DNA of 64,000 nucleotides from Escherichia coli (GCF_024298765.1 NZ_CP101211.1), one strand, 5' to 3'; shown: positions 15,001 through 21,000, counted from the first letter of the stretch. Made by a program: the numbers.

Positions 15001-18000
15001 CAAGTACAGCGCATCAAACCCCAGATTCATCCAGAAACAACACATAGTCATATAGTTACTATTGAGGACTCTCCCTTTCTTTCTCGGTTAAAATTTAAAA
15101 TCATTACTGCCATAGATCGGCTTCCTGACCCTAATGGCCTTTATACAAACACCTTTAACAGCATTATTGACCGTGCACTGCTGACTCATCTCAAAACCGA
15201 ACAGGAAAAAATAGATAGTCCAAGAGTCTGCAAAAATGTGATTTCGGCTTTTGCCGACTCAACTCTTTCTCTGCCGGTGTTTAACATCGGCCTAAACGAG
15301 CAGTACAGATACTGGACGCCGTGGGGCATCAACTTTATAGAATTTTCCCGCCAGGCCGCAAAAGCAAGGACCGCTGTATTTGTTCCTGATGTGGGACAGA
15401 TCGAGTGGAAAAGCGCAGAGCATAAAGAACTGGCGGAGTTAAGCCTCATCGACCAAATCATACCTAAACAGTACCACTGGCTCCTGGGTATCCCGACGAT
15501 GTGGCGTAACAACTATTGCAATCACGATCAGAGGCTAGCTCTTTTTCGTGAATGGAGGGAAAGCAATGGCTGCGGATAATACAAGCAGAGCAGCAGTGCT
15601 CAGAACAATGCTTTTTTTTGGCATGGTCATTTATTTTGGTTACAGCCTGGCTTTCCAGAATACTGAGGAGCTCAAATATCAGATTACTCAGGAGGTTAAT
15701 GCAAGCCGGTCCATCATATCAAATGACCGTTGGAAGTCTGTTATTGCAAATAGTGAAGCGACTTTAAATTGGTTGGTACATGACTATAAGTTAATTGACT
15801 ATCTGAATACTATTCTGATCCCTGACACCAAAAAACCAGCCAGAGGTATTAACATTGTTGCTGAAAAATTTACCTCTATTAATTACACTATGGCCAAAAA
15901 CATACCCCTCTTACTTTATCAGTCCATTTTCCGGTGGAACTTAATCCTGGGGTGGCTAATCGTTTTTCTGCCCTATCTATTTGCCATGCTAGCAGATGGA
16001 ATGTACCAGTGGAAATTGAAGAGGTACGTATTTGGTAAGGTTACAGTTCAGTTTTATCGTATTTGGTTTCGAGCATTTTGGGTGATCAGTGCTTTAACGA
16101 TGGTCTACCTGGTCATGCCGAATATGTCACTATTTAACAATATCGCTCAACTTTTCCCACCAGTCGCTTTATTGATACTGGGAATTGCATTGAATCGCTT
16201 GTGGTCTAACTTTCAAAAACTCATGTAAAGGTGGTCAGATGTTAAGCAGTAAAAAAAGGAAGTCCCCTACAAATATCAAAGAATCGCTCAATGATAACGC
16301 TGACCGTTTTTATAAGATGTTTCGCATTCATACCACGGCAAAAGTTGCTATGTCGCTAATTGCCATGACCGCTGTAGGGTTTTCTTTCTACAATCTTTAC
16401 GAACAATGGCAGGACGCTGAAGGGAAGAAAGACCATATAGCTGTAATACGGATTTCTGGCGAGATGGGTACCGGCTCGGAAACGGGCGATGGAACAGTGA
16501 TCGCAACAGCTCTTGCCAAAGCTTACAATAATCCCCATGCCAAAGCAGTTATTATCGAGGCAGAGTCAGGTGGTGGTGGTCCCTCTGACGCCATCATTAT
16601 TTACCGCCAGATAAACGCGCTTAAAAACCACCAGCCACAGATTGAACGCGTATCAGATGCCGGTTGCTCTCTTTCATCTGTAGCCGCTGACAAGAGTAAC
16701 AAAACCGGGAGCACAGAACGTGGCGATGAAGCACGGTCGAAGCAAAACTCCCTCGAAGTACTCTCCAGCGGTACCGGTCGTTTTTTCTCTGATATCGCAG
16801 ACTCATATAAACCAATCATCGTTAGTGTGAAAGGCATATGCGCATCCGCATGCTATTACGCGGTATCGCCCGCTGATGCAATTTATGCCGACAGTAATGC
16901 CCTGATCGGTTCTATCGGTGTGCGTATGGACCACTGGAATCTGTCAGAGATCATGAGCACAGTAGGCGTCAAGAATGAGCCCCTTACGGCCGGTGAGTTC
17001 AAAGATGCTCTTGACCCCTTCCACCCATTGTCCGATTCAACGAGGGAGTTCATGCAGAAGGAGATCCTGAACACGATGCATGAAAAATTTATAACTGATG
17101 TTGAACTTGGACGGGGTAAAAAGCTTCTCTCGCGTCATGATGCCGATGCTGTTTCTCTCTATTCAGGCCGTGTATGGCCAACACCTCAGGCAGTTAAGTA
17201 CGGCCTGGTGGATGGAGATCTTACGTCAGTAGAGATCCGTACACGTCTTTCAAAAATGTACTCCACTGACACGTTCAAAAACTACAATGAGCCTCATCGT
17301 AATCTCCGTTCTGCACTCGGCATGCTGATGAGCCTGTCTTCAAATATTGAGAGCCTTACCGGTACCACTACCCGCTTGGTAGAATCTGTTAATGCCACCA
17401 GCTACCCCTCTGTGAGGTAACATGGATGCTTTCAATCTGCTGTGGAGCATTACGGGGGTAGCTTTCATTATCCTTATTTTCGTCGTGTTGCTGTGTCTGT
17501 TGGGTTTTATGACCTCTGCCATAGCGGAACGGCGGACTGCAAAGGCAATTGAATCTGGGCTTCCTGAAGAAGCTCAGGGGCTACTTAGTGATCTCACCTT
17601 TCAGTTGTCGGCTCATAGCACTACTCAGGTTGATCACATTCTCGTAGCCCCACATGGTATATACGTCATAGAGCAGAAAAACTACGTAGGCAAGCTCTAC
17701 GGTACTCTGGAGGAAAGCCACTGGCGGAAATGGACTCAGTCCCGAACCCTCAAGTTGCAGAACCCGTTTAAGCAAAACCAGGGGCACATCAGGGCTATTC
17801 AGTCTGCTCTTAAGGCTAGAGAACTGGAATGTATCAATGTCGTCATCATAAACGGACGTTGTAAGTTTGATGGCATCAAGCCGGAATGGTTATGTATGGG
17901 GATGGACGATTTTATCCATAAAGTCAAACAACGACGAGGGCTACGGTTGTTCACACCGGAGTCTGTTCAGCACATCTGTTCGGTGTTGAAGTCAACAAGG

Positions 18001-21000
18001 AAGTCGCCAGGGCTCTATACGGACCTTACTCATATTCACAACATAACGACAAAGTACAAAGCCCCGATGAAATTCGAGCAACGAGTAACATACATTCTGC
18101 TCAACTTTATCCATTATCTGTGGGCAAGTCTGTTCACTAAGCAGAAGCCTTAGCGCTCTATCATTGGTAAGGCTGTAAAATGTCTGCAAAAGGCCCCATC
18201 GGTAAATTGTTGGGGCTTTTTCTTTGCGTAGTTCTGATACGGTTTATCCTGTGGAGCATTATGGCCACCAGCCAGCTGGTGACTGGCCAACGCTTTGTAT
18301 GACGTAGCCTACTCAGGGCAGGCTATTTTAGAGGGACCGATTTTTATCCGGGCTAATTTAGAAAGAGATAATTTGAACTTAGGCGGGCTGACCACCAGCA
18401 GAGAGGTAAATCACTAGCCGGTGATATTGACAGAAGTCGTCAGGGGTTTAACGCCGGAATATTTTGCCAGGCCTCCTGCAAGGTCTGCAAGACTTCTACA
18501 AGTGATAGTGACGGCCACAGGACTGTTTCCGTCATTATCACTCCAGGTGGCTCGCACTCTACTGGTACCAGAATTAAAACAACACGAGTTCCTTTTACCT
18601 GGTAGGCAAGGTTTACTGCCGGTTGGCGGTAGGAGGCCAGTACACCCTCACCATATTGAGCAGGGTTACTTGCCCAGTTCCGCACCATTGCATACACCTG
18701 AGGCATATACCGACTATCCAGATCCCCTTTGGGCCGTCTGAACGGCACGATTTCTTCTGAGCGGTAGGTGGTCGTTGTTGTATTGGTTGTCATCTTTGTC
18801 ACCTCCCCTGTTCGTCCATTTAGAGTTTTAAGCTGCTTTACACATCACACTCAACTGATTATTTAAGCTGGTCATCGTCTCTGGCCAGCATAGCCCAACC
18901 ATTCGACTGGTTTTCGCGGGAGTAAGGATTCATTTCAAAATAACTATCTACCGCGTCGCTGTCCGCAACAGAACTGTTGTTAGCTCTCTTTGAACCCTGA
19001 ACCACTACAGCATCAACCTCTGCGGCTTTCCCGTTGCGCTGTACCAGGATTTTAACCGTCTTGGGCTTACGTCTTGCGAGCAGTTTGTTGGCGATAAAAA
19101 GCACAACAATCCAGGCCAAAAGCACGTATAAAAATTTATTCATAATGCCCTCCTTTGTATGTGATTATTATACCTGCTTCCATTGCAGGCCAAACAGGTT
19201 CGGTGTATGAAAAATAGACTTCTCTCCGGCGTATAGCAATCTACTTACTGATCTGTTTTCGTATCAAACTGTATGGCATAACCGAGGGGCGTACGTGGTG
19301 AGTCAGAAAGTTACTTTTCCGTAATAGTTAATTTCAGATCCTTCTTCCAGTTACGCTTCAGTATAAAACCGATACCCTCTAATTCAGCATCCTTCACGTT
19401 TAATACGCTTCACTTTAAGGCAGGGCTTTTCGGTTGATATGAATTCTTTTTCCGGTTGCTGGACATGGGTTTCATCCTGATAGTTAAAATTGCAGGCTAT
19501 CAGTCACCACCACCACCTCCTCCTCCTCCTCCTCCACCGCCACCATCACAACCACCAGCTATGCTATTTTCACCATTACAATCACCTCCGAGGGGGTTCA
19601 AATGGCTGCTCCCCTGTAGATGGTGTCCTTGCCAGATCGAACCCGAACCAGCGCCTCCTGAGCGTCTTTGCTTGCCCTGAGGCAATTGTGCAGGCTCACC
19701 AGCACCGGCGGTCCCAAAAATGTCCCGGGCAATTTTATAAAGAAGGTAAAAAGGTACGCCCAGCATCATAAAAAAGATTACTGAAAATATTACACGTTCC
19801 ATTGATGATCTCCTGTCTTGTGAGAGACCAGTTATATCAGGGTGATTCAGTATTTCCGTTTAGAAAAGAGTACTAATTTGGCCCTGTTCGATCTTAATTT
19901 GCCATCCGGGAAAAAGTCATAGGGATAGGCCTGCCAGAGTCAATAACTTCCAGTGATCTGGAGGAGACCCCGGCTCTCTGAGCCCTCATGGATGGTACGG
20001 CTTTACCCCCTGTAAACAGATTCACGTTCCGCAGGACAAACATCGACTACTGACGTCTCATATTTGCTGACGCTAATCCGACGTCTCATTGCCGTCTGCT
20101 TGTTTTCTTTAAAGGGTGTATTAGACGAATATCAAATCGGAATGGTAGGGGATGTGTGGGCACCATGCCCGGCCCTCTTTGAGCATCTGAGAGATTGGAG
20201 ACCTAGCCGGGTAAGATAGCTACTTTCTTACGGGTTACCCTTCAAATCCAAAGACGAAACGGACGCTGCCGTTCTCCACGTGGAGACGCTTTACTTCTTC
20301 GACAAATTCCTGGATCACCTCTCCGGCGTTATCGGGTGGTATGGCTGACAAAATTTCTTCCGAAGTCAGCCATGAGTATGAATGTTCACCGAATAAATCA
20401 TCATCTTCGGACGGTATATCATCAGGTAATCCGCGTAATGCGTGGATAAAAACTGCTGATGTGCTCGCCCTTTCACGATCTACATCAAATCCGAGCCAGG
20501 CAAAGTGGAGATATGATCGGTCCCCTTTATAATTGCTTGATAAATTAATCCATTTACCAGGCTTTTCTTCCCTTTGAAATCGCCAGCAGATATCAACGCC
20601 CATTAAGAAACTCCATTACTATCGTTCGTATGAGATAACTATCATTTCAGAATACTATGACTTCTTCCCGTATAGAACTAATCGCTCACGCCAACTGGGC
20701 GAAGCCAACCGGTTCCGCCACTTCGCTCATTGGTTTTTAGGCGTAAGCACTGAAGCCAGTCTCCATGCTAACTGGCGAGCCTGCGAAAGTCAGACTCGTT
20801 GTTATAAAGCGGCATATCGTAAGCGGTGTCTGAAATGAACATGCGGATCTGCTCAAGCGTCATGCCACAATGAAAACGGTTTACGCTCACATTGGCCCGG
20901 GGGAAGTCAGCACAAAACGCATTCAAAACATTTTCATGGACAATGCCAATGTTGATCAACGCAGCTGGCCCGTTGTCACGGAAGGATACGACACGGAATC

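What the first reader, a model, noticed from the sequence alone, without database searches (positions are those of the whole stretch)
16239..18153. S49 peptidase-like and NERD-domain genes at the end of the relaxase operon
A membrane-anchored SppA-like peptidase and a NERD protein are in tight overlap with the preceding transfer genes, suggesting co-expression with the relaxosome and coupling protein. They may process a transfer component or act on DNA during transfer.
Basis: partly seen in the sequence, partly recalled or inferred. Interest (0 to 1): 0.35.

Follow-up and report, generated by a model that had tools for sequence, protein, structure and literature searches.

The report
Peptidase and nuclease ending IncHI relaxase operon
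The last two genes of the DNA-transfer operon of this IncHI2 resistance plasmid do encode a membrane-anchored SppA-like protease and a membrane-tethered NERD nuclease, but both are already annotated, their R27 counterparts appear dispensable for conjugation in the laboratory, and their real job is still unknown.

Summary
Window 16239-17420 encodes a 393-aa S49 peptidase (Pfam E 2.9e-28). Window 17422-18153 encodes a 243-aa NERD protein (E 1.1e-21). Both close the + strand operon mobI/traH-traI-T4CP-traJ(DtrJ) of an IncHI2 plasmid, which is at least 99% identical to 977 plasmid records.

Catalytic residues are intact: Ser203/Lys255 in S49, and Asp71/Glu84/Lys86 in NERD. The genes are tightly packed (gaps of 10 and 1 nt) but do not literally overlap. 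A terminator hairpin follows NERD.

They are orthologues of R27 R0116 and R0115. A published transcriptome table lists these in the H operon and shows them co-derepressed with traI/traG/traJ. A review citing Lawley 2002 counts five of the 14 Tra1 genes as non-essential. By elimination these include both genes.

Three results are new here.
- S49 follows DtrJ in distant MOBH modules (Vibrio, Motilimonas, a metagenomic plasmid), whereas NERD in that position was found only in IncHI-type operons.
- S49 is the best-conserved operon protein between IncHI2 and IncHI5.
- Charge bias predicts opposite topologies: S49 periplasmic, NERD cytoplasmic. That argues against a joint substrate.

The most likely reading is host-redundant accessory functions. 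Ordinary, low novelty.

The parts
7957..8496 (+). mobI/traH, first gene of the operon (oriT-recognition factor). The reference annotation starts it at the equivalent of window 8011.
   Evidence: Pfam MobI E 3.5e-22; annotated mobI in pSTM6-275
8493..9230 (+). Conserved hypothetical protein, 245 aa, counterpart of R27 R0121
   Evidence: No Pfam family above cut-off. An unnamed gene of about 268 aa occupies the same position in distant loci L008 and L010.
9234..12386 (+). MOBH relaxase TraI
   Evidence: Pfam TraI_2 E 1e-32; annotated as MobH family relaxase
12386..14470 (+). Type IV coupling protein (TraG in R27 naming, TraD in PGAP naming)
   Evidence: Pfam TrwB_AAD_bind and TraG-D_C; annotation
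14467..15579 (+). Conserved hypothetical protein, 370 aa, counterpart of R27 R0118
   Evidence: No family hit; 66.5% identical to its R27 counterpart
15548..16228 (+). TraJ/DtrJ, a polytopic membrane protein with DUF4400. The reference annotation starts it at the equivalent of window 15566.
   Evidence: Pfam DUF4400 E 1.2e-12; three hydrophobic segments
16228..16234 (+). Shine-Dalgarno sequence AAGGTGG of the S49 gene, 4 nt before the ATG
   Evidence: Read from the sequence
16239..17420 (+). S49 (SppA-like) serine peptidase, 393 aa, orthologue of R27 R0116
   Evidence: Pfam E 2.9e-28. Sequence match to B. subtilis SppA 3RST E 6e-15. Foldseek match to 4KWB/3RST E 1e-18, TM 0.84-0.89 on the target. 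72% identical to the R27 protein.
16344..16400 (+). Codons for the predicted N-terminal membrane helix of S49 (aa 36-54). It is preceded by a K/R-rich segment, which predicts a periplasm-facing catalytic domain.
   Evidence: Hydropathy and flank charges across 21 homologues; AlphaFold helix aa 13-61
16620..16799 (+). Variable insertion specific to the IncHI lineage (aa ~128-187), partly disordered and absent from relatives 28-33% identical
   Evidence: Alignment A1; pLDDT below 50 for aa 134-158
16845..16847 (+). Codon of Ser203, the predicted nucleophile, in the motif CASACYY
   Evidence: Invariant in 21 sequences and aligned with the SppA nucleophile motif AASGGYY
17001..17003 (+). Codon of Lys255, the predicted general base, in the motif GEFKDALDPF
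   Evidence: At least 90% conserved. From memory, the motif matches E. coli SppA GTYKSAVEPF around Lys209.
17414..17417 (+). Shine-Dalgarno sequence GAGG of the NERD gene, inside the end of the S49 gene. The S49 stop codon lies in the spacer, so translational coupling is plausible.
   Evidence: Read from the sequence
17422..18153 (+). NERD-domain (PD-(D/E)xK) nuclease-like protein, 243 aa, orthologue of R27 R0115
   Evidence: Pfam E 1.1e-21. 63% identical to the R27 protein. AlphaFold pLDDT 89.9. Top fold matches are weak (E ~0.01), but most of the best-ranked ones are PD-(D/E)xK-type nucleases.
17437..17523 (+). Codons for the N-terminal membrane helix of NERD (aa ~6-34). It is followed by ERRTAK, which predicts a cytoplasm-facing nuclease domain.
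   Evidence: Kyte-Doolittle 3.1; K/R bias on the C-terminal side in all 13 homologues
17632..17679 (+). Codons spanning the predicted active site: Asp71, Glu84, Lys86
   Evidence: All three are invariant in alignment A2; codons checked
18189..18225 (+). Terminator-like hairpin (AAAGGCCCCA...TGGGGCTTT) followed by a T-run, marking the probable operon end
   Evidence: RNA fold, centroid -15.8 kcal/mol. The simple scan missed it because the loop is longer than 8 nt.

Best explanation
These are the two terminal accessory genes of the IncHI 'H' (DNA-transfer) operon, orthologues of R27 R0116 and R0115. Shown here: they are transcription-unit neighbours of mobI/traH, traI, the coupling protein and traJ/DtrJ, and both keep intact catalytic motifs under purifying selection. 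Inferred: the S49 protein is a single-pass inner-membrane protein whose one-domain SppA-type Ser/Lys protease faces the periplasm. When the tra genes are derepressed, it most likely does envelope housekeeping for the transfer apparatus. That means degrading leftover leader peptides (such as the TrhA prepilin leader) or misassembled membrane components around the coupling protein and DtrJ. E. coli's own SppA and SohB can cover this job, which would explain why it appears dispensable in laboratory matings. Inferred with less confidence: the NERD protein is a PD-(D/E)xK nuclease tethered to the cytoplasmic face of the inner membrane. It was added only in the IncHI lineage and cuts DNA near the membrane or T4SS. 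Possible roles are clearing abortive transfer intermediates or attacking competing or incoming DNA. The two proteins probably work independently, on opposite sides of the membrane.
For: Domains and motifs: (Pfam). Ser203 and Gly112/Gly113 invariant, Lys255 at least 90% conserved. Asp71, Glu84, Lys86 invariant; best fold match is B. subtilis SppA, then E. coli SppA; most of the best-ranked fold matches for NERD are PD-(D/E)xK-type nucleases, though weak.

Operon membership: (spacing, no terminator at either junction, hairpin after NERD). R0115 and R0116 are labelled H operon and are derepressed 5.6x and 4.7x in the htdA mutant at 25 C, while R0114 is not.

Dispensability: ('five non-essential genes' of the 14 in Tra1); natural IS5 insertion in S49 and IS3 insertion in NERD in otherwise intact IncHI2 plasmids.

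Selection. dN against R27 is 0.19 (S49) and 0.28 (NERD) with saturated dS, comparable to traI at 0.25. S49 is the most conserved operon protein against IncHI5 (51% identity).

Synteny. MobI-x-TraI_2-T4CP-x-DtrJ-S49 is kept at 28-33% S49 identity, whereas NERD in that position occurs only in IncHI-type loci.

Topology: (K/R bias N-terminal of the helix in S49 and C-terminal of it in NERD, across the families).

Precedent for host redundancy. The R27 dsbC and F trbB phenotypes are visible only in dsbC-null hosts.
Against: No experiment here or in the papers I could read assigns a substrate to either protein. The Lawley 2002 paper itself could not be read, so placing these two ORFs among the 'five non-essential genes' is by elimination, not by direct statement. 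S49 sits next to DtrJ and the coupling protein, not next to the pilin gene, and in IncC its homologue lies in a different operon beside DsbA; this fits housekeeping only loosely. S49 conservation equal to or above that of essential Dtr genes is more than expected for a fully redundant function. Topologies rest on the positive-inside rule only. The S49 helix is only moderately hydrophobic (Kyte-Doolittle 1.39). NERD has two conserved cysteines (C147, C158) that could instead suggest a periplasmic disulphide.
Confidence: 0.5

Rival explanations
1. One reading: the peptidase and the nuclease are dedicated parts of the DNA-transfer machinery. The peptidase would mature or turn over a relaxosome, T4CP or DtrJ component, and the nuclease would process the transferred strand. 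Both would measurably raise conjugation efficiency.
For: The DtrJ-S49 adjacency is conserved over large distances. Purifying selection is as strong as on essential Dtr genes. The genes are co-regulated with traI/traG/traJ. The NERD domain is predicted to sit on the cytoplasmic face, where the coupling protein handles DNA.
Against: Five of the 14 Tra1 genes are non-essential in R27, and the four essential Dtr genes are the named ones (plus my recollection of the Lawley 2002 abstract). NERD is missing from relatives that keep the rest of the module. IncC keeps its S49 homologue in another operon, and the systematic deletion study of Rts1 lists no S49 peptidase among the conjugation genes or homologues it discusses. 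The S49 catalytic domain is predicted to be periplasmic, away from the relaxosome.
Confidence: 0.2
2. Competition or defence cargo: the membrane-tethered NERD nuclease, with or without the peptidase, protects the plasmid's host cell. It would degrade incoming phage or rival-plasmid DNA at the membrane, or act as a fertility-inhibition or exclusion-like factor, and would play no part in the plasmid's own transfer.
For: NERD domains occur at the N-termini of the defence proteins PglW, MkoA and MAD6, and those models give domain-level hits here. The TM+NERD architecture is very widespread as a stand-alone gene: 8487 representative clusters in the profile search, and a stand-alone context in the one distant relative whose neighbourhood could be read (the contig was too short to judge). 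A NERD gene is also embedded in an unrelated F-type tra operon of a Photobacterium MOBF plasmid, which suggests repeated capture by conjugative elements. A precedent exists for a plasmid nuclease degrading a rival's transfer intermediate: Osa of pSa, cited.
Against: The hits to defence models lie far below their cut-offs (41 against 460 bits, 20 against 990 bits) and cover only the NERD domain. S49 has no PADLOC hit. The genes sit inside a tra operon controlled by the transfer regulators, not in a defence island. IncHI entry exclusion is already assigned to EexA/EexB.
Confidence: 0.2
3. The S49 gene is a phage-derived head-maturation protease remnant, and the pair are passenger genes without function in the plasmid.
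For: PHROG 53 'head maturation protease' matches at E 5.4e-33. A few natural IS knock-outs exist.
Against: The PHROG hit reflects shared S49 family membership only. The architecture (N-terminal membrane helix plus one SppA domain) and the best structural matches are cellular SppA. No phage genes are nearby. Both genes are intact with conserved catalytic residues across IncHI1, IncHI2 and IncHI5 despite saturated synonymous divergence.
Confidence: 0.03

Closest known systems
R27 (IncHI1) ORFs R0116 and R0115, the last genes of the H operon of transfer region Tra1
   Same: Orthologues at 72% and 63% amino-acid identity, with the same order, same strand and same neighbours mobI/traH, R0121, traI, traG, R0118, traJ. 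R0116 is already labelled 'peptidase' and both are labelled '(H)' in a published expression table.
   Different: IncHI2 versions differ mainly in the variable insert of the peptidase. No functional difference is known.
Bacillus subtilis SppA (36K-type signal peptide peptidase, PDB 3RST/4KWB)
   Same: Single N-terminal membrane helix followed by one S49 domain. The serine nucleophile motif and glycine-rich oxyanion region are conserved. It is the best structural match: Foldseek E 1e-18, TM 0.84-0.89 on the target.
   Different: Only about 21-23% identical. The window protein scores below the NCBIfam SppA domain cut-off (121 against 155 bits). The lysine aligns with the E. coli-type G-x-Y/F-K motif, not with the B. 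subtilis position. It has a roughly 60-aa lineage-specific insert and a different C-terminal tail. It is plasmid-borne in a conjugation operon.
Escherichia coli SppA (protease IV) and SohB
   Same: Same family, with an inner-membrane anchor and a periplasm-facing Ser/Lys active site (established knowledge). They are likely functional back-ups in the host. NCBIfam hits to SppA_67K and SohB are at E 1.7e-27 and 7.7e-15.
   Different: E. coli SppA is a two-domain 67K protein in which Ser and Lys come from different domains. The window protein is one-domain and scores far below the equivalog cut-offs.
IncC plasmid S49 family peptidase (for example pKKp4-VIM, 7365-8324)
   Same: Also a one-domain, membrane-anchored S49 peptidase on a MOBH/MPF_F conjugative plasmid, with the same Ser and Lys motifs.
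   Different: Only 26-28% identical. It lies in a separate operon next to a DsbA-family gene, not after DtrJ, and no NERD gene follows it.
NERD domain family (PF08378), first described on pXO1; N-terminal domains of PglW, MkoA and MAD6
   Same: Same domain, with the D...E-x-K motif of PD-(D/E)xK nucleases.
   Different: Here the domain stands alone behind a membrane helix, with no kinase, helicase or other partner domain, and none of the partner genes of BREX, Mokosh or MADS are present.
Non-essential nuclease genes at the edges of tra regions of other plasmids (for example nuc of pKM101; recalled from memory)
   Same: A nuclease carried within or beside transfer genes that is not required for conjugation in the laboratory.
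   Different: pKM101 Nuc is a periplasmic phospholipase-D-family enzyme. The protein here has a PD-(D/E)xK fold and is predicted to be cytoplasmic and membrane-tethered.

Membership tests
Peptidase family S49 (SppA type) | Match to the Peptidase_S49 profile above the curated cut-off | tested here: met
   PF01343, 99.2 bits against a cut-off of 24.9, E 2.9e-28
Peptidase family S49 (SppA type) | Serine nucleophile in the conserved A-S-G/A-x-Y motif | tested here: met
   Ser203 (CASACYY) is invariant in 21 sequences and aligns with the AASGGYY motif of SppA
Peptidase family S49 (SppA type) | Lysine general base | tested here: met
   Lys255 in G-E-F-K-D-A-L-D-P-F is at least 90% conserved. The motif equals the E. 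coli SppA Lys209 motif as I recall it. It does not align with the lysine position of B. subtilis SppA.
Peptidase family S49 (SppA type) | SppA fold (ClpP/crotonase-like protomer) | tested here: met
   Foldseek matches to 4KWB/3RST at E 1e-18 with TM 0.84-0.89, then E. coli SppA, then ClpP. The model core has pLDDT above 90.
Peptidase family S49 (SppA type) | Equivalog-level identity with signal peptide peptidase SppA or SohB | tested here: not met
   TIGR00706: 121 bits against 155. TIGR00705: 96 against 311. SohB: 55 against 259. The protein is therefore a family member but not a demonstrated SppA or SohB orthologue.
Peptidase family S49 (SppA type) | Oligomeric bowl or dome with proteolytic activity on signal peptides | not testable with these tools
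   Requires biochemistry or multimer modelling
NERD / PD-(D/E)xK nuclease | Match to the NERD profile above the curated cut-off | tested here: met
   PF08378, 77.8 bits against 22.1, E 1.1e-21
NERD / PD-(D/E)xK nuclease | Catalytic D ... (D/E)-x-K residues | tested here: met
   Asp71, Glu84 and Lys86 are invariant in 13 homologues down to 32% identity
NERD / PD-(D/E)xK nuclease | Restriction-endonuclease-like fold | tested here: inconclusive
   The model is confident (pLDDT 89.9). The best PDB matches are weak (E 0.01-0.3, TM about 0.3), although most of the best-ranked ones are PD-(D/E)xK-type nucleases: R2 RLE domain, VC1899, Can2, Hjc, Bax1, MGME1.
NERD / PD-(D/E)xK nuclease | Nuclease activity | not testable with these tools
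   No experiment on this subfamily was found in the searchable literature
IncHI H (Dtr) operon | Same transcription unit as traH/traI/traG/traJ | tested here: met
   Same strand, gaps of 10 and 1 nt, no terminator at either junction, hairpin terminator after NERD. The R27 orthologues are labelled H operon and are co-derepressed in the htdA mutant. No direct transcript mapping for IncHI2 was seen.
IncHI H (Dtr) operon | Required for conjugative transfer | not tested
   Literature only: five of the 14 Tra1 genes are non-essential. Assignment of R0115 and R0116 to those five is by elimination, and the primary paper is not held.
Known defence systems containing NERD (BREX type 2 PglW, Mokosh MkoA, MADS MAD6) | Full-length match and presence of the system's partner genes | tested here: not met
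   Only the roughly 100-aa NERD domain matches, far below the cut-offs (41 against 460 bits; 20 against 990 bits). The neighbours are tra genes and small hypothetical genes.

The most novel reading that the evidence does not exclude
The S49 peptidase is an unrecognised, conserved component of MOBH11-type DNA-transfer modules. It would act on the DtrJ-coupling-protein membrane complex, for example by proteolytic maturation or turnover that gates substrate entry. Its requirement would be masked in E. coli laboratory matings by host SppA/SohB and would show up in other hosts or conditions. The IncHI-specific NERD nuclease would then be a second, cytoplasmic layer acting on DNA at the same complex.
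Probability: 0.12. Interest if true: 0.55.

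Novelty: already known. Interest (0 to 1): 0.22.

Why it matters
IncHI1 and IncHI2 plasmids spread mcr, ESBL, carbapenemase and heavy-metal resistance genes. Their relaxase module (MOBH) is among the least understood. If the conserved S49 peptidase contributed to transfer in natural hosts, it would be a druggable periplasmic enzyme and a new type of conjugation accessory factor. As things stand, both genes are annotated backbone genes with no demonstrated role. The useful outcomes here are narrower. The domain calls are correct, the catalytic sites are intact, and the peptidase (not the nuclease) is the widely conserved partner of DtrJ. The two proteins probably face opposite sides of the membrane. 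Host redundancy is the obvious confounder to remove in any mutant test.

Tried and rejected
1. I tried to read Lawley et al. 2002 (by DOI and as PMC134963) and Sherburne et al. 2000 (PMC105367). Neither is held. The mutant phenotype therefore rests on a review sentence, on my recollection of the abstract, and on elimination.

2. Literature searches for S49 or NERD in conjugation, IncHI transposon-sequencing screens, and AcaCD regulation of the IncC S49 gene found nothing specific. The two H-pilus papers do not mention this peptidase.

3. PADLOC gave no defence-system assignment, only NERD-domain-level hits.

4. A sequence search of solved structures found nothing for NERD, and Foldseek gave only weak nuclease-fold matches.

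5. I tested whether the Rhizobium plasmid S49 hits lie in tra operons. They do not.

6. dN/dS could not be computed as a ratio because synonymous sites are saturated between IncHI2 and R27 or IncHI5. Only dN and amino-acid identity were compared.

7. The simple terminator scan missed the hairpin after NERD because its loop exceeds 8 nt. RNA folding recovered it.

8. A 509-aa DUF4400-S49 fusion (P0001) occurs in a single short read assembly. The two genes are in different frames, so I judged it a frameshift or assembly artefact.

Full report
**What the window is.** The stretch 14400-18400 is at least 99% identical to 977 plasmid records from Escherichia, Salmonella, Enterobacter and relatives. 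These are typed IncHI2A / MOBH / MPF_F; one example is pSTM6-275. The finding therefore lies in the Tra1 backbone of an IncHI2 resistance plasmid.

**The observation.** ORFs at 16239-17420 (393 aa) and 17422-18153 (243 aa) exist on the + strand.
- Pfam gives Peptidase_S49 at E 2.9e-28 (aa 188-338) for the first.
- Pfam gives NERD at E 1.1e-21 (aa 33-142) for the second. Both scores are several-fold above the curated cut-offs.
- The six upstream ORFs are MobI, a 245-aa hypothetical protein, a TraI_2/MOBH relaxase, a TrwB/TraD-type coupling protein, a 370-aa hypothetical protein and DUF4400/DtrJ.
- Four of the upstream junctions overlap by 1-32 nt. The two junctions in question are gaps of 10 nt and 1 nt.
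- Each of the two genes has its own ribosome-binding site, AAGGTGG and GAGG, and the S49 stop codon lies in the NERD spacer.
- No predicted terminator lies at either gene junction. The scan lists one weak terminator-like match inside the S49 coding sequence (17132-17149) and one weak promoter-like match at 16365-16394. Promoter-like sites are no more frequent than in shuffles, and terminator-like sites are only slightly more frequent (17 against 10.6 +/- 3.6).
- A GC-rich hairpin followed by a T-run lies at 18189-18225.

So 'tight overlap' is loosely worded, but co-transcription is the natural reading.

**The peptidase.** It has an N-terminal K/R-rich segment, one moderately hydrophobic helix (aa 36-54) and then a single S49 domain.
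- In an alignment of 21 homologues down to 23% identity, Ser203 (CASACYY) and Gly112-Gly113 are invariant, and Lys255 (GEFKDALDPF) is at least 90% conserved.
- The serine aligns with the SppA nucleophile motif. As I recall it, the lysine motif is the one around Lys209 of E. coli SppA.
- The AlphaFold model has a core pLDDT above 90. Its best matches are B. subtilis SppA (E 1e-18, TM 0.84-0.89), then E. coli SppA, then ClpP.
- It scores below the NCBIfam SppA and SohB equivalog cut-offs. It is therefore an S49 family member with an SppA-like build, not a demonstrated SppA orthologue.
- A roughly 60-aa variable, partly disordered insert (aa ~128-187) is specific to the IncHI lineage.
- The charge distribution around the helix, across the family, predicts a periplasm-facing catalytic domain, as in SppA. 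This is an inference.

**The NERD protein.** It has a strongly hydrophobic N-terminal helix (aa ~6-34, Kyte-Doolittle 3.1). The conserved sequence ERRTAK follows, then the NERD domain and a helical C-terminal part.
- Asp71, Glu84 and Lys86, the PD-(D/E)xK signature, are invariant in 13 homologues down to 32% identity.
- No solved structure is detectably related by sequence.
- Fold matches are weak, but most of the best-ranked ones are PD-(D/E)xK-type nucleases.
- In every homologue the positive charges lie on the C-terminal side of the helix. This predicts a nuclease domain tethered to the cytoplasmic face. This is an inference, and two conserved cysteines leave some doubt.

**Relatives and context.** The two proteins are the orthologues of R27 (IncHI1) R0116 and R0115, at 72% and 63% identity in the same position.
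- The same pair follows DtrJ in Klebsiella IncHI5-type plasmids, at 48-51% and 34% identity, and in a metagenomic contig.
- tblastn counts in the plasmid collection are nearly identical for the two proteins: 955 and 966 records at 99% or more, and 268 each at 60-80%.
- S49 alone, at 28-33% identity, still follows DtrJ in the block MobI-x-TraI_2-T4CP-x-DtrJ-S49. This is seen in a Vibrio gigantis plasmid, a Motilimonas genome and a metagenomic plasmid where traL/E/K/B come next. None of these has a NERD gene there.
- IncC plasmids carry a 26-28% identical S49 gene in a different operon beside a DsbA-family gene. The systematic deletion study of Rts1 lists no S49 peptidase among the conjugation genes or homologues it discusses.
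- A profile of the NERD clade matches 8487 representative clusters. Many of the best-scoring ones are proteins of about 200-260 aa matched from near the membrane helix to the end of the NERD region. In the one distant relative whose neighbourhood could be read, the gene stands alone (the contig was too short to judge).
- One homologue lies inside the F-type tra operon of a Photobacterium MOBF plasmid.

Thus the peptidase is the old, widely conserved companion of the MOBH DtrJ module. The nuclease looks like a later addition to the IncHI-type operons from a very common stand-alone family.

**Selection.** Synonymous sites are saturated between IncHI2 and R27. Non-synonymous distances are 0.19 (S49) and 0.28 (NERD), against 0.25 for the relaxase, 0.11 for the coupling protein and 0.135 for TraJ. 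Against IncHI5, S49 is the best-conserved protein of the whole operon: 51% identity, compared with 47% for T4CP, 46% for TraJ, 35% for TraI and 34% for NERD. Both genes are under purifying selection. Rare natural knock-outs exist: IS5 inside S49 in pE92-1, and IS3 in the 5' end of NERD in pYD786-1.

**Published knowledge.** In the R27 microarray supplement, R0115 and R0116 ('peptidase') are listed as H-operon genes. They are derepressed 5.6- and 4.7-fold in an htdA mutant at 25 C, alongside traJ, R0118, traG, traI and R0121 (7- to 11-fold). The next gene, R0114, is not derepressed.

A review citing Lawley et al. 2002 says Tra1 has 14 genes, five of them Mpf and five non-essential; another paper also gives 14 ORFs. 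The count of 14 works only if it includes eight H-operon ORFs (R0115-R0122) plus six on the other side of oriT. The essential Dtr genes are the four named ones, traH, traI, traG and traJ, as I recall from the abstract. R0115, R0116, R0118 and R0121 therefore fall among the non-essential five. I could not read the primary paper.

There is a relevant precedent for masked phenotypes. The R27 dsbC and F trbB defects appear only in dsbC-null hosts.

**Mechanism.** What is shown:
- correct domain calls;
- intact active sites;
- operon membership;
- purifying selection;
- different phyletic spread of the two genes.

What is inferred:
- the opposite membrane topologies;
- from these, that the two enzymes do not share a substrate;
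- that the peptidase does SppA-like clearance of leader peptides or misassembled membrane proteins when the tra genes are on, backed up by host SppA/SohB;
- that the nuclease cuts DNA at the inner face of the membrane, either clearing failed transfer intermediates or attacking rival DNA.

I give the combined statement 0.5. The identity and operon parts are near certain. The substrate-level parts are about one in three.

The rivals are a dedicated transfer role (0.2), competition or defence cargo, mainly for NERD (0.2), and a phage remnant or passenger (0.03).

**Verdict.** The finding is real and correctly described, but ordinary. Both genes are annotated in about a thousand records, and their R27 orthologues have been known as H-operon ORFs since 2000-2002. 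The available evidence says they are not needed for laboratory conjugation. The modest open question is why a DtrJ-linked S49 peptidase is so well conserved. That question is testable with sppA sohB donor strains.

Noticed in passing
window 8493-9230 and 14467-15579: Two further unnamed operon genes, counterparts of R27 R0121 and R0118, have no family assignment. Unnamed genes occupy the same two positions in distant MOBH modules: about 268 aa after MobI and about 190 aa after the coupling protein in L008 and L010. R0121 is among the most temperature-induced R27 genes (8.3-fold).
   Followed up: partly
window 16620-16799 (S49 aa ~128-187): A variable, partly disordered insertion of about 60 aa is present only in the IncHI-lineage peptidases. 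It is absent from the Vibrio, Motilimonas, IncC and SppA sequences. Its role is unknown.
   Followed up: partly
window 17300-17417 (S49 aa ~355-393): The C-terminal tail is disordered in the model but ends in a conserved S/T-x-P-x-[VL]-R motif in the IncHI clade. In B. subtilis SppA the C-terminal tail occupies the active sites and is self-processed (title of PDB 4KWB), so an autoinhibitory tail is conceivable. This was not tested.
   Followed up: no
L016 6728-7549 (Photobacterium damselae plasmid pdp2): A NERD-domain gene 27% identical to the window protein sits inside an F-type tra operon, between traW and traU, of an unrelated MOBF plasmid. This suggests that conjugative operons have captured NERD genes more than once.
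   Followed up: no
L007 7365-12871 (IncC plasmid pKKp4-VIM): The IncC S49 homologue lies in a long same-strand gene run with a DsbA-family gene directly after it. A thermonuclease-family gene lies about 4 kb further on. This is a non-homologous peptidase-plus-nuclease combination on another MOBH plasmid.
   Followed up: no
L022 (pE92-1) and L023 (pYD786-1): These are natural insertion mutants. IS5 splits the S49 gene in pE92-1, and an IS3-family element removes the 5' end (the membrane helix) of the NERD gene in pYD786-1 (a second record, NZ_AP027680.1, gave the same split match and feature list but was not opened). They could serve as ready-made strains for transfer tests.
   Followed up: partly
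window 18421-18802, both strands: ORFs overlap on opposite strands (18421-18741 on +, 18440-18802 on -). The reference annotation keeps the - strand one (WP_000210769, hypothetical). It begins a long run of small - strand hypothetical genes downstream of the operon.
   Followed up: no
P0001 (509 aa, one Logan contig of 1.9 kb): This is an apparent DUF4400-S49 fusion protein. The two genes are in different frames in the window, so it is probably a one-base assembly error and not a real fusion.
   Followed up: partly
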